64,000 bases of DNA from contig OX597825.1 of NCBI GenBank assembly GCA_951406725.2, positions 68,138,001 to 68,202,000 on the forward strand, in the 5' to 3' direction. How positions within the stretch are numbered: position 1 is the first letter of the stretch; every line of letters begins with the position of its first letter. Origin of the DNA: Octopus vulgaris (Eukaryota). Of the stretch, positions 7,790-58,145 are shown one piece after another. A program made the position numbers and the translations under genes. The notes beneath the pieces are model-generated. The model made no database searches. It saw only the letters and a program-made list of their open reading frames with translations, and was not told where the DNA came from.

Positions 7790-8170
7790 GGGCGGCGAGC
7801 TGGCTGAATCGTTAGCATGCCGGGCGAAATGCTCAGCGGTATTTCGTCTGCCGCTACGTTCTGAGTTCAAATTCCGCCGAGGTCAACTTTGCCTTTCATC
7901 CTTTCGGGGTCGATTAAATAAGTACCATTTACGCACTGGGGTCGATATAATCGACTTAATCCGTTTGTCTGTCCTTGTTTGTCCTCTCTGTGTTTAGCCC
8001 CTTGTGGGTAGTAAAGAAATAGGTATTTCGTCTACTGTTACGTTCTGAGTTCAAATTCTGCCGAGGTTGTCTTTGCCTTTCATCCTTTCGGGGTCGATAA
8101 AATTTGTACCAGTTACGCACTGGGATCGATGTCCCTTTATCCCTTCTCCCAAATTTGAGGCCTTGTGCTT
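7790..8170 (+). mobile_element. SINE family A, full copy followed by the 3' part of another copy
   Basis: GGCGGCGAGCTGG head through the AAAGAAATA tail, then the sequence resumes at GGTATTTCGTC. Confidence 0.85.
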
Positions 8171-25363: not shown

Positions 25364-26803
25364 GCGACTTGTATTGCTTGGTTTACCGTGCCGTGGATTG
25401 CTGAAGAATTCTCACATGTACCAAGCGTGCCACGTGAAAGCGACGGTAAAACGTGGTACTGCAATACGAGCGAAAACAAAGCGAGCATTCGTCAAGGTAG
25501 TTTGGTTCGAAAACAGCCATTTCAGTTTGTAGAATATCATCCTTCTGTCATATTGCTAAGCCTACGGCTTCACTCAGGAAGACATTTCTCGTAAGGTTCG
25601 GTGCAACAAGAATACTTGTGTTGGTTGATGCAATTTCTACCATGAATTGATTTTACGAACATAAAATAGGAAATTACCAAATGTGATATCTTTAACTATA
25701 TATGAATAATGCAGTATTTGATAGACGAAACCAAGAAAAAAGTGAGTGGGTTGGTCATTTCTGGAATACTTTTGATTATAAACTTGCTCAATCGGGGTCA
25801 ACCTGAGGTTAAACAAAAATAACCACAACCCTAACCAAATGACAAAAATAATTAAGAGAGCATTTGAGCATTTACTCTGTTGATATCTCTCCATCTTCCA
25901 AATAAAGTCCTCGGGGATATCGCATCAGTTTCTCTGGTATTTATAGCGATTGTTTATTCAAAAGTACATTTATAATACTATTGAACGAATGCCAATTTAT
26001 AAGTAAAAGAATATATACAAATATATATATATATATAAAAGAAAAAAATGATGTATTCCGTTTGTTCGATCCGGAAATTATGCGAATTAGCCTTACTCCA
26101 TAATTAATTACAACACATCCTTCATTGATAATTAGTCTAAGTAGCTTTAATTTCCAATATTCAGACGTTATTCTTTCCTCGACTTCTAAACGAAGTTTAT
26201 ATACAGTGTTATATATACACTATGTCCATCAACCTGCATTGAATTGCTCGTTCTAATACATTTAACGAGACTATGAACTCAATCAAACGATAATTCTTAT
26301 CCATTGAAATACCCTATATGAAATGTTAATTTTTTTTCATTTTCACGACGCACCAATTTATTTCAATTCTTTCTTTTCTTTTCTTTTTTTCGTTGTCCTT
26401 TTTTTCCTTTTTACCTGATTAAATCTTCTTCCATTTAGCAGATTATCCTAAATTATCGACTTACAATCAAGTGTTAACCCATTTCCATTTAATCCTTCAT
26501 AGACCCATTATTACAATACAAACATAACAAAATACGCTAGCCTCTGTGCGGTCATTGAACTTGCTAGAAATGGCAGCCAAACCTCCTTCGAATTACAACA
26601 CTATCACAATGCTTCTCACATGGTGCATCGCTCAGCACATCAACGTTAGACACGGATTATTTTAAATATAATTTAAGGCTTTATTAGAAAATCCCTTCTG
26701 ACGCTTGAATGTCTTGCAAAACACTTAATTCATAATTCTGTCACACACACACACACACACACATATACATTCCTGTATGTTATATTTTAACTGGTAGTTA
26801 AAA

Positions 26804-26876
26804 GTCCCTGTAGCGCAGGGGATAGCGCGCTGGACTTCTAATCCAGAGGTCGTGGGTTCGAATCCCACCAGGGATG
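26804..26876 (+). tRNA. tRNA-Arg(TCT), intronless, 73 nt
   Basis: Full cloverleaf: acceptor GTCCCTG/CAGGGAT, D stem GCGC/GCGC, anticodon stem CTGGA/TCCAG with loop CT-TCT-AA, T arm GTGGG-TTCGAAT-CCCAC, discriminator G. Confidence 0.97.
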
Positions 26877-26879
26877 ATA

Positions 26880-26885
26880 TTTTTT
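26880..26885 (+). terminator. Pol III oligo-T terminator of the tRNA-Arg gene
   Basis: T6 run 3 nt after the discriminator base. Confidence 0.8.
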
Positions 26886-26889
26886 GTAA

Positions 26890-27119
26890 GGCGGCGAGCT
26901 GGCAGAATCGTTAGCACACCGGGCGAAATGCATAGCCGTATTTCGTCTGCCGTTACGTTCTGAGTTCAAATTCCGCCGAGGTCGACTTTGCCTTTCATCC
27001 TCTCAGAGTCGATAAATAAAGTACCAGTTTTGCACTGGTTCGATGTAATCGACTTAATCCCTTTGTCTGCCCTTGTTTGTCCCCTCTATGTTTAGCCCCT
27101 TGAGGGCAGTAAAGAAATA
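26890..27119 (+). mobile_element. SINE family A, full length, directly downstream of the tRNA
   Basis: GGCGGCGAGCTGG head through the AAAGAAATA tail. Confidence 0.95.
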
Positions 27120-27367
27120 TATATTTTAACTGGTATCTTTATATAATTTATATGTAAAGCATAATATGTTATACATGTATGTATATTCTTGTAATTGTCA
27201 AACTGACATGTCTAAAAGTTGATGAACCACCTATTGATCCCCTCCATTTTCTTATTGCTTTCTCTCTCTCTTTCTATATATATATATATATATATATACA
27301 TACACATACATATATATATATGTATGTATATGTACACATACATACATACATATATATATATACACAC

Positions 27368-27421
<54 letters not shown>

Positions 27422-27617
27422 ATATATATATGTATATCATCATCATCATCATTTAACATCTGCTTTCCATGATAGCATGGGTTGGACGATTTGCCAGTCT
27501 GATCTGGCAGAGTTTCTACAGCTGGATGCCCTTCTTAAGGCCACTCCGAGAGTGTAGTGGGTGCTTTTACGTGCCACCGGCACGAGGTCCAGTTTGGTGG
27601 TACTGCCAACAGCCTCG

Positions 27618-27654
<37 letters not shown>

Positions 27655-56269: not shown

Positions 56270-58145
56270 TTTAAGTATAGCTAGCTATCCTTGTCATCAG
56301 TTGTCTCCTTCAAAATCTGATTTCATTTTCTCTTCTTGGGTTCTGTGCATTCTGTAAGAAGTCGTTCGCTAAGTACATACTCAAGGAGTGCTTCTCTTTC
56401 TTCACGGCAGAAACCTAAATTAATTTTCTCTAGTATTACCACATCTTCAACATGCATTTACCCTCTTCCTCCTCCTGCTCCTTACCTGTGTAACCAGTCC
56501 ACATCTGATCAAAGGTGTAGGTTCCTATGAATTGTGAGCTTTCTCCTTTTTTTTTTTCGCTTTTGCCAATGTCCTTCAGCTCCTCCTTTCTCCATATCTT
56601 ATTAAGAAGGTACATGGCTTAGTGGTAAGGATATTTGGCTCACGATCAAAAGGTTGTGAGTTCAATCCTTAGCAATGTATTGTGTCCATAAGCTAGACAC
56701 TTTTTATTTCACATTGCTCCAGTCCACTCAGCTGGCAAAAATGAGTATTACTTGTATCTCAGAGGGCCAGCCTTGTCACATTCTGTGACACACTGAGAAC
56801 TACATTAACACCCATTAGCACCCATGGCCCTTTTCTTAGGACCAGAAGGATAATCCATCATATTTCAGCAACACCTGTATTTTTCTGAGATATTAGTCAT
56901 CAAAACTGGAGTGTCTTTCAAATATTGTACTAAAATTTTTTTTTATATATTTAGTATCAGATAAAGTTGTATAAACAAAAATTTCTGTAATAAATCCAAT
57001 AAAAAAATTTGGTCACTAATGGGTGTCTGTGGAATGCTCAGCCACTTCTACATTAATTTCATAAGTAGATTGTTCTGTTGACTGAATCAACTAGAACCTT
57101 CATCATCATCATCACCGACAGAGTGCCATTTTTTTTTAACTTTGTCAAGTTGATTGCTTGATGTTTCCTGTATTCAATTTCAGCTTTTTAAAATCATGTT
57201 CATTCTGCAAAAAATATCCTTTACTGAGGGCTTCCTTCATTTCTATATTTTTGATTTTGTTACTTTCCAGTGTTCTCAGGCAATTATGTTTCATCTACAT
57301 TTAACGATTTTATATCCCTATCACCAGACAGATCTATTCCAATATTTTTTATGGATTTTTCCCTGCTTCATTTCTGTCATAGAACACTTCTCAACTCTAA
57401 ATGTCAACTCAGTATTGATTTCAGATATTGGTACAAGGCCAGCAATTTTGAAGGGAGGGGTAGTAAGTCGATTACATCAACCCCAGGGATCAACTGGTAC
57501 TTATTTTATCAATCCTGAAAGGGTGAAAGTTAAAGTTGGAATTTGAACTCAGAACACAAAGACAGATGAAATGTCACTAAATATTTTGCCTGGCATGCTA
57601 ACAATTCTTATTTCTTTATTGCCCACAAGGGGCTAAACATAGAGGGGACAAACAAGGACAGACAAAGGGATTAAGTCAATTACATCGACCCCAGTGCGTA
57701 ACTGGTACTTGATTTATTAACCCCGAAAGGATGAAAAGCAAAGTCGACCTTGGCGAAATTTGAACTCAGAACGTAATGGCAGACGAAATACAGCTACGCA
57801 TTTCGCCCAGTGTGCTAACGTTTCTGCCAGCTCGCCACCTTGCTAACAATTCTACAAGCTTGCCACCTCAGATGTCATCTCAATACCATTACTAAAATAT
57901 TTTTACAGTTTGCCCTAAAGTCTCAAGCAGATTCTTGTCTTTGCCATTAAGCTTTAAATCATCTATAAACACCAGATGATCCACTTTCCCTTTATTCTCT
58001 CCAGCTGAATATCCTTCCTTAGCTTTATTTAGTATAATCAACAAAGGACATCCATGGGATTATCAAACAAGATGAGAGAGAGAGAGGCTGTTCCACTGAA
58101 AGATTCCTCTTCTAATCTGAGAATCTGCAAATCTTTTCCTTTTTG
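56270..58145 (-). mobile_element. Decayed Dong/R4-clade LINE RT region, interrupted by SINEs
   Basis: IRRGIFQ..SLS, KVDHLVFIDDLKL.GK, EMKEALSKGY...KLNTGN, LH..SDVDWL...GGGRG. Confidence 0.8.

What the first reader, a model, noticed from the sequence alone, without database searches (positions are those of the whole stretch)
26781..27135. Intact tRNA-Arg gene and a SINE enclosed in one target-site duplication: a retroposed pre-tRNA-SINE chimera
The 16-mer TATATTTTAACTGGTA occurs at 26781-26796 and again at 27120-27135, immediately after the SINE tail AAAGAAATA. That is where other copies of this SINE place their 13-18-bp TSDs (e.g. 23951, 30557). The left copy, however, lies upstream of the tRNA and not next to the SINE head. 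The insert therefore reads: 7-nt leader (GTTAAAA), complete tRNA-Arg(TCT) without CCA, ATA-T6 trailer, GTAA, full SINE A. Leader plus oligo-U trailer is what an unprocessed Pol III pre-tRNA looks like. Two routes are likely: an RT template switch or ligation from SINE RNA onto a pre-tRNA (analogous to U6-L1 chimeras), or read-through from a source tRNA gene into a downstream SINE. Either would create a new, potentially functional tRNA gene with its own promoter and terminator. This is a possible SINE-driven route of tRNA gene amplification and a snapshot of how SINEs acquire new tRNA heads.
Basis: partly seen in the sequence, partly recalled or inferred. Interest (0 to 1): 0.78.

Follow-up and report, generated by a model that had tools for sequence, protein, structure and literature searches.

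The report
Precursor tRNAs copied onto SINE fronts
An intact arginine tRNA gene copy and a short mobile element (SINE) sit inside one insertion footprint, likely because the copying enzyme jumped from the SINE RNA onto an unprocessed tRNA, and this genome holds about a hundred similar tRNA-SINE fusions that could occasionally seed new tRNA genes.

Summary
Observation confirmed. The 16-mer is a true target-site duplication. It lies in an older dispersed repeat whose paralogues carry it once, with both flanks contiguous, and both window copies share a private 6-nt deletion. The tRNA-Arg(TCT) matches six other genomic genes at 73/73.

It is not a one-off. 13 of 17 solitary Arg(TCT) copies are fused to a SINE at or near the Pol III oligo-T end, against 0 of 23 clustered ones. 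Pattern scans give 29, 53 and 34 tRNA-like hits in front of three SINE modules. Many isotypes occur, some unspliced; only one ends in CCA. One Glu trailer is joined to four different SINE types, and the identifiable source genes have no SINE behind them. This argues against read-through and against a composite family. 22 of 30 U6 loci are SINE chimeras too.

Best reading: independent end-to-end template jumps by a LINE reverse transcriptase onto oligo-U-ended nuclear Pol III transcripts. This is the U6-SINE chimera route known from platypus and anole, here capturing pre-tRNAs. The exact source gene was not found, and function of this copy is untested. New variant of a known kind.

The parts
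26767..26780 (.). left remnant of an older dispersed host repeat (pre-insertion target)
   Evidence: contiguous with the 16-mer and the right flank in paralogues L068-L071, L073, L074
26781..26796 (+). left copy of the 16-bp target-site duplication
   Evidence: present once in paralogues, which carry 6 extra nt inside it
26797..26803 (+). 7-nt 5' extension, likely pre-tRNA leader (possibly with untemplated letters)
   Evidence: between TSD and tRNA +1; no other genomic copy with up to 1 mismatch; leaders of other chimeras match their source genes (L013/L006)
26804..26876 (+). intact tRNA-Arg(TCT) without CCA; A box about 26811-26821, B box 26855-26865
   Evidence: 73/73 identical to L002, L003, L006, L008, L009, L010
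26877..26885 (+). 3' trailer ATA plus T6 (Pol III terminator; oligo-U end of the primary transcript)
   Evidence: sequence; similar trailers in genes L007 and L002
26886..26888 (+). junction letters GT(A); origin unresolved
   Evidence: T-run + GT + AGG also occurs in 4 of 34 SINE D hits; test for target-derived letters not significant, p=0.09
26889..27119 (+). full-length tRNA-headed SINE ('SINE A'), tail ending AAAGAAATA
   Evidence: 8/230 rare alleles, median for 53 copies
27120..27135 (+). right copy of the 16-bp target-site duplication
27136..27262 (.). right part of the older host repeat
   Evidence: 44 genomic matches at 72-91% identity apart from self

Best explanation
The tRNA and the SINE sit inside one 16-bp target-site duplication in an older repeat, and they were likely written in one insertion when a LINE reverse transcriptase finished copying a full SINE RNA and jumped onto the oligo-U 3' end of an unprocessed tRNA-Arg. 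Steps: (1) target-primed reverse transcription starts at the SINE tail (inferred from established non-LTR biology; tail/target overlap seen); (2) the enzyme reaches the SINE 5' end and adds a few untemplated letters (inferred); (3) it jumps end-to-end to a nuclear pre-tRNA ending in U's (inferred from junction anatomy across many loci); (4) it copies to the pre-tRNA's 5' leader and joins the upstream target end, leaving the 16-bp duplication (product shown). The same route acts genome-wide on many pre-tRNAs and on U6. Most products decay as pseudogenes; this one is still intact.
For: Paralogous empty site and the private 6-nt deletion shared by both 16-mers. Of 40 scored Arg(TCT) matches, 13 of 17 solitary copies have SINE sequence at or near the trailer's T-run, against 0 of 23 clustered genes (read by eye). 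Source-copy pairs share trailers, leaders or diagnostic tRNA changes, and the source has no SINE behind it: L006 to L013/L028, L008 to L040, L020/L021 to L033, L030 to L035. T-psi-C motif + SINE A head: 29 hits, 24 tRNA-derived or tRNA-like by eye (14 called by ARAGORN at relaxed threshold), 23 with a trailer and 1 with CCA. Among the 25 with a readable tail, a repeat scoring 10 or more encloses tRNA + SINE in 8, flanks the SINE alone in 1, and occurs in 14 of 600 mismatched pairs. One Glu trailer occurs at 10 unlinked loci with four SINE types. 53 hits in front of the short 'SINE C' module against 0 with CCA. 34 hits in front of SINE D; 16 of the 20 read are tRNA-derived by eye, 8 by ARAGORN. 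Intron-containing Lys, Leu and Tyr precursors are among them (L144, L168, L190, L132, L151, L159, L183, L200). 22 of 30 U6 loci read are SINE chimeras. RtcB ligation needs a cyclic-phosphate end and a 5'-OH partner, and drops sharply with a 3'-OH or a 5'-triphosphate (PMC6789731, passages). That fits poorly with a full-length SINE partner and a primary pre-tRNA end (end chemistry recalled). R2 reverse transcriptase template jumping requires untemplated addition (PMC8857657, abstract).
Against: No source gene with this leader or exact trailer is in the assembly; the Glu trailer family has no source either. 17 of 25 SINE A hits show no enclosing repeat scoring 10 or more, some because they sit in TA runs. 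SINE C chimeras show no convincing TSD excess: 8/50 against 144/2450, mostly low-complexity. TSDs were not checked for SINE D hits or for the intron-containing cases, so some could be resident genes with an adjacent SINE. The junction letters GTA equal the last three letters of the TSD, which a second insertion with a 3-bp duplication would also give. DNA alone cannot separate a template jump from RNA ligation. The mobilising LINE was not identified.
Confidence: 0.75

Rival explanations
1. RNA ligation first: a pre-tRNA 3' end trimmed to a cyclic phosphate is ligated (RtcB-like) to a SINE RNA or fragment, and the chimeric RNA is then retrotransposed.
For: Shown for human U6/L1 (PMC6789731, passages). 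Many partners here are 5'-truncated SINE fragments, and U6 chimeras are abundant.
Against: The partner here and in many others is a full-length SINE with an intact head, expected to carry a 5'-triphosphate (recalled), a poor RtcB substrate. Junctions carry variable extra letters (A, GT, AC, AAA). Pre-tRNA oligo-U ends are normally 3'-OH (recalled).
Confidence: 0.13
2. Two events at one spot: the SINE inserted first with the 16-bp TSD, and a pre-tRNA copy was later (or during repair of the same event) placed at its 5' junction with a 3-bp GTA duplication.
For: GTA ends the left TSD and recurs before the SINE head. The SINE half carries 8/230 rare alleles while the tRNA half has 0/73 changes. 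L063 has a 9-nt target-like junction.
Against: Junction-to-target similarity over 16 chimeras was not significant (sum 29 against permuted mean 23.5, p=0.09). T-run + GT + head also occurs in SINE D chimeras. Independent insertions cannot put 13 of 17 solitary Arg copies against SINE ends.
Confidence: 0.06
3. Pol III read-through from a resident tRNA gene into a downstream SINE made a composite RNA that was retrotransposed (possibly a composite family).
For: A full-length SINE follows the terminator directly. L100 shows that read-through past a T4 happens, with about 75 nt of extra trailer to a second T-run before SINE A. The focal source is unknown.
Against: No identified source gene is followed by a SINE. 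The same trailer pairs with four SINE types. No second copy of this unit exists. T6 is a strong terminator (recalled).
Confidence: 0.04
4. The tRNA is an ancestral resident gene, and the 16-mer repeat is chance or local duplication.
For: Perfect identity to functional-type genes; a TATA-like stretch at -23.
Against: Paralogues of the host repeat are uninterrupted at this site, and both 16-mers share a private deletion.
Confidence: 0.02

Closest known systems
U6-SINE and U6-LINE template-switch chimeras of platypus (L2, Mon-1) and anole (L1, L2, RTE, AnolisSINE2); Doucet et al. 2015, PMC4476161 (passages; section 10 in full)
   Same: A Pol III RNA ending in oligo-U sits 5' of a SINE or LINE 3' part in one insertion. 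It is typical of stringent LINEs, where a cellular RNA needs the element's 3' end to be mobilised, and 5' truncations are frequent. U6 chimeras are abundant here too (22 of 30).
   Different: The captured RNA is a pre-tRNA with leader, trailer and sometimes an intron. Unlike U6 (upstream promoter, recalled), a full tRNA copy brings its own internal promoter and terminator. The host is an invertebrate.
Human tRNA/LINE-1 chimeras; Law and Burns, PMC11838501 (abstract, passages)
   Same: tRNA sequence and a retroelement inside one TSD.
   Different: 21 loci, typically half-length and mostly antisense, explained by tRNA halves and twin priming. Here the copies are sense, joined at the terminator, often full-length, with SINE partners, and number about a hundred or more.
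Tailless and pre-tRNA retropseudogenes (Schmitz et al. 2004, not held; seen only as cited in PMC4476161 and PMC5322556, passages)
   Same: Unprocessed nuclear tRNA is used as a template.
   Different: Those are 3'-truncated, primed directly on the tRNA and have no SINE partner.
U6/L1 chimeras made by RtcB ligation; Moldovan et al. 2019, PMC6789731 (passages)
   Same: Junction at a 3' U-tract.
   Different: Needs a cyclic phosphate and a 5'-OH, with a truncated L1 partner; here the partner is often a full-length SINE.
Birth of SINE heads by template switch (SINEU, PMC4494074, passages; bipartite RTE SINEs, PMC5786205, passages; mollusc SINE module exchange, PMC4758252, passages)
   Same: A small-RNA head is added 5' of a LINE-recognised tail.
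   Different: Those are amplified families. These are mostly independent, unamplified events, most with the terminator still between head and tail.

Membership tests
template-switch small-RNA/retroelement chimera (U6-type) | small RNA copy 5' of a SINE or LINE part, same orientation | tested here: met
template-switch small-RNA/retroelement chimera (U6-type) | one TSD encloses both parts; empty site exists | tested here: met
   (paralogous empty site)
template-switch small-RNA/retroelement chimera (U6-type) | junction at the small RNA's natural 3' oligo-U end | tested here: met
   T6 here; 23 of 24 tRNA-type SINE A hits carry a trailer, mostly ending in T2-T8
template-switch small-RNA/retroelement chimera (U6-type) | independent events (varied partners and junctions), not one amplified unit | tested here: met
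template-switch small-RNA/retroelement chimera (U6-type) | the two parts come from separate genomic sources | tested here: inconclusive
   met for L013, L028, L033, L035, L040; focal source not found
template-switch small-RNA/retroelement chimera (U6-type) | joining happens during reverse transcription rather than by RNA ligation | not testable with these tools
   needs RNA and reporter experiments
RtcB-ligated U6/L1-type chimera | 5'-truncated (5'-OH) partner and cyclic-phosphate 3' end | tested here: not met
   partner is full-length; end chemistry itself not testable
tailless retropseudogene | 3'-truncated RNA primed directly, no retroelement tail | tested here: not met
   full tRNA plus trailer plus SINE
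new composite or dimeric SINE family | multiple copies of the same head-body junction | tested here: not met
   single copy of this junction
functional tRNA gene | intact cloverleaf, A and B boxes, terminator | tested here: met
functional tRNA gene | purifying selection | tested here: inconclusive
   0/73 against 8/230, P about 0.075; may simply be young
functional tRNA gene | Pol III occupancy or locus-specific pre-tRNA | not testable with these tools
   no raw RNA reads were offered

The most novel reading that the evidence does not exclude
In this genome (likely an octopus), LINE-driven template jumping onto pre-tRNAs is a standing factory for new Pol III units. Full-length products such as this one arrive with promoter and terminator and can become transcribed tRNA genes. 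Products whose U-run was cut to three or fewer (11 of 50 SINE C hits have T3) are ready-made proto-SINEs: a tRNA head on a LINE-recognised tail. This Arg(TCT) copy would be a working, SINE-born tRNA gene.
Probability: 0.25. Interest if true: 0.8.

Novelty: new variant of a known kind. Interest (0 to 1): 0.6.

Why it matters
The textbook model for SINE birth, a tRNA head joined by template switch to a LINE-recognised tail, is usually inferred from old amplified families. Here about a hundred unamplified, mostly independent joining events survive in one genome, with leaders, trailers and introns showing that the substrate is the nuclear primary transcript. That makes the model directly testable: which tRNAs are captured, how much U-run survives, and whether T3-or-shorter junctions go on to amplify. 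Unlike U6 chimeras, full-length pre-tRNA chimeras keep their own promoter and terminator, so this is a plausible route of tRNA gene dispersal. The retained leaders also map Pol III start sites. Practically, many of the solitary tRNA genes annotated in such genomes are retro-chimeras.

Tried and rejected
Cross-species presence or absence was inconclusive. The first lay (runs X23, X24, X6, X11) was swamped by SINE copies, and the raw-read runs gave no cover over the unique flanks. The second (X4, X6, X7, X11, organisms B, C, D, E) found no contig over the TSD-leader-tRNA junction, only tRNA paralogues. It had no same-species positive control and the tool warns that a hole proves nothing, so I use it neither for age nor for an empty orthologue.

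The source gene was sought by leader (only itself) and by trailer (L007-type gene with 3 tRNA differences; L002-type gene with an identical tRNA and a T-run followed by GTA, but a different leader). Neither fits exactly.

The idea that junction letters copy the target end was tested and was not significant (p=0.09). A TSD test on SINE C chimeras was uninformative. The reversed-pattern controls (0 hits) are weak, because a reversed SINE head is not abundant. By my own arithmetic (about 2e5 heads), roughly 6-7 chance T-psi-C matches are expected, which fits the 5 non-tRNA hits among 29. The fold gave a non-cloverleaf minimum-energy structure (z -3.1) and adds nothing beyond. The earlier-findings look-ups held nothing on this phenomenon.

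Full report
Observation. The window is G000:C12:68138001-68202000 in a 2.8-Gb assembly. The SINE sequences look like octopus SINEs to me; that name is recalled and comes from no call. An identical 16-mer lies at 26781-26796 and 27120-27135. It encloses a 7-nt leader, tRNA-Arg(TCT) at 26804-26876, ATA-T6, GT(A) and a full SINE at 26889-27119. The tRNA is 73/73 identical to six other genomic copies (L002, L003, L006, L008, L009, L010).

The duplication is a TSD. The right flank is part of an older dispersed repeat (44 matches). I read 7 paralogues. Six show the window's left flank, one copy of the site and the right flank as one stretch; L072 lacks the left part. In those six the site is 6 nt longer. 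Both window copies lack those 6 nt, so the 16-mer was duplicated at this locus after that deletion. The whole tRNA-SINE block is therefore an insert, and the tRNA is not ancestral here.

It is one of many. A DNA search gave 40 scored Arg(TCT) matches of 50 candidates. Twenty-three lie in three clusters (C4, C17, C20), and none of them has a SINE at its terminator. Seventeen are solitary: 13 run from the trailer's T-run (degraded in L034) into SINE sequence, and 4 do not (L006, L008, L030, L036) (classified by eye). The partners differ: 3' parts of a GAT-tailed SINE ('B'), a short module of about 50 nt ('C'), full 'SINE D', and full or 3'-terminal SINE A. L037 is a second SINE A case, with a 15/16 TSD and a different junction. 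Several copies can be traced to a source gene by trailer, leader or diagnostic substitutions (L006 to L013 and L028; L008 to L040; L020/L021 to L033; L030 to L035), and no source has a SINE behind it.

Other tRNAs behave the same way. A T-psi-C motif followed by the SINE A head gave 29 hits. By eye 24 are tRNA-derived or tRNA-like (Glu, Asp, His, Ser, Lys, Leu, Arg) and 5 are not; ARAGORN at relaxed threshold called 14. Twenty-three of the 24 carry a trailer, and one (L077) ends in CCA. Of the 25 hits with a readable tail, 8 have a repeat scoring 10 or more that encloses both parts, 1 has one flanking the SINE alone, and mismatched pairs give 14 of 600; 17 show none at that score. One Glu trailer occurs at 10 unlinked loci: four with full SINE A, three with C, one with D, one with a 3' part of B, and one (L100) reading on about 75 nt to a second T-run before SINE A. 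Its source gene is not in the assembly. In front of C there are 53 hits with a T-run and none with CCA. I read 50 of the 53, and ARAGORN. In front of D there are 34 hits. I read 20: 16 are tRNA-derived by eye and 8 by ARAGORN. Intron-containing Lys, Leu and Tyr precursors appear, including a 5'-truncated one (L190). TSDs were not tested for D and were uninformative for C (8/50 against 144/2450, mostly low-complexity), so some of these could be resident genes beside a SINE. All counts are lower bounds from exact patterns. Of the 30 best U6 loci read (48 scored), 7 are plain genes, 1 has no SINE and 22 are SINE chimeras.

Mechanism. Shown: one insert; a precursor-type tRNA template; junctions at the oligo-T end; varied partners; no amplification of this unit. 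Inferred: priming at the SINE tail, copying to its 5' end, untemplated addition, and an end-to-end jump onto a U-ended nuclear Pol III transcript. R2 reverse transcriptase needs untemplated addition to jump (PMC8857657, abstract), which fits the variable 0-4 junction letters. RtcB ligation, shown for human U6/L1, falls sharply with a 3'-OH or a 5'-triphosphate (PMC6789731, passages), so it fits full-length SINE partners poorly, but DNA cannot exclude it. Read-through is disfavoured by the source genes and the four-partner trailer. The junction GTA equals the end of the TSD, which leaves a two-step route open. Across 16 chimeras the junction-target similarity was not significant (p=0.09), and T-run + GT + head recurs in 4 of 34 SINE D hits. 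The mobilising LINE was not identified.

Function. The copy has intact A and B boxes and a T6 terminator. The SINE half carries 8/230 rare alleles, the median of 53 copies; the tRNA has 0/73 changes (P about 0.075). The other 13 solitary copies compared carry 0-12 changes from the nearest source allele, so most are decaying. A TATA-like stretch lies at -23, closer than the -26 to -35 seen in 11 of 17 source-type genes. Youth and selection cannot be separated here, and the cross-species lays were inconclusive.

Comparison with what is known. U6-SINE chimeras by template switch are described in platypus and anole (PMC4476161, section 10 read in full). Human tRNA/L1 chimeras number 21 and are typically half-length and mostly antisense (PMC11838501, passages). 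Pre-tRNA retropseudogenes without a SINE partner are known (Schmitz 2004, not held; seen as cited). Template switching is proposed for the gain of SINE heads (passages). Nine full-text searches listed no paper whose title, or whose passages that I read, describe sense, full-length pre-tRNA-SINE chimeras joined at the terminator, or any such chimeras in cephalopods. The library lacks most subscription journals, I read only eight papers in part, and no supplements were read, so a prior mention cannot be excluded.

Verdict. The feature is real, it is one insertion, and it belongs to an abundant class of independent pre-tRNA-SINE chimeras. It is a new variant of the U6-type chimera. Interest 0.6. 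The bolder reading, a source of working tRNA genes and proto-SINEs, has probability about 0.25.

Noticed in passing
L102-L131 (U6 loci genome-wide): 22 of 30 top U6 matches are U6-SINE chimeras with several SINE types, including full SINE A with TSDs of 14 and 18 nt (L115, L109); a tandem U6 gene cluster lies at C1:139.42 Mb.
   Followed up: partly
L162-L165 (C27, C29): Four near-identical short tRNA-like 3' end + trailer + SINE C units in TA-rich surroundings; they may be an amplified composite (candidate proto-SINE) or copies within a larger duplication.
   Followed up: partly
L100 (C26:11005268-11005291, minus strand): A Glu pre-tRNA chimera with about 75 nt of read-through past a T4 to a second T-run before SINE A: a fossil of Pol III terminator read-through.
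   Followed up: no
L058, L064, L193: Tripartite or doubled junctions: a partial repeat of the tRNA 5' end (L058), a SINE head + Lys 3' half + SINE (L064), and an inverted tRNA piece upstream (L193; also L097), suggesting serial jumps or twin priming.
   Followed up: no
L083; G000:C26:20900515-20900578: A tRNA-like element not called by ARAGORN, captured in front of SINE A (12-nt TSD) and of SINE D; an unidentified Pol III RNA or SINE head.
   Followed up: no
window 26767-26780 and 27136-27262; L068-L074: The older AT-rich host repeat has internal inverted matches about 400 nt apart in some copies (L069, L070), possibly a non-autonomous DNA transposon.
   Followed up: partly
G000 C17:78.87-78.94 Mb, C4:138.29-138.30 Mb, C20:38.63-38.64 Mb: Tandem clusters of tRNA-Arg(TCT) genes (15, 5 and 3 scored copies) with varied leaders and trailers.
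   Followed up: partly
window 1209-63846: About 30 SINE A-related pieces in 64 kb, several nested or head-to-tail (e.g. 7791-8132, 57464-57840); a GAT-tailed SINE fragment lies on the minus strand near 27440-27620.
   Followed up: no
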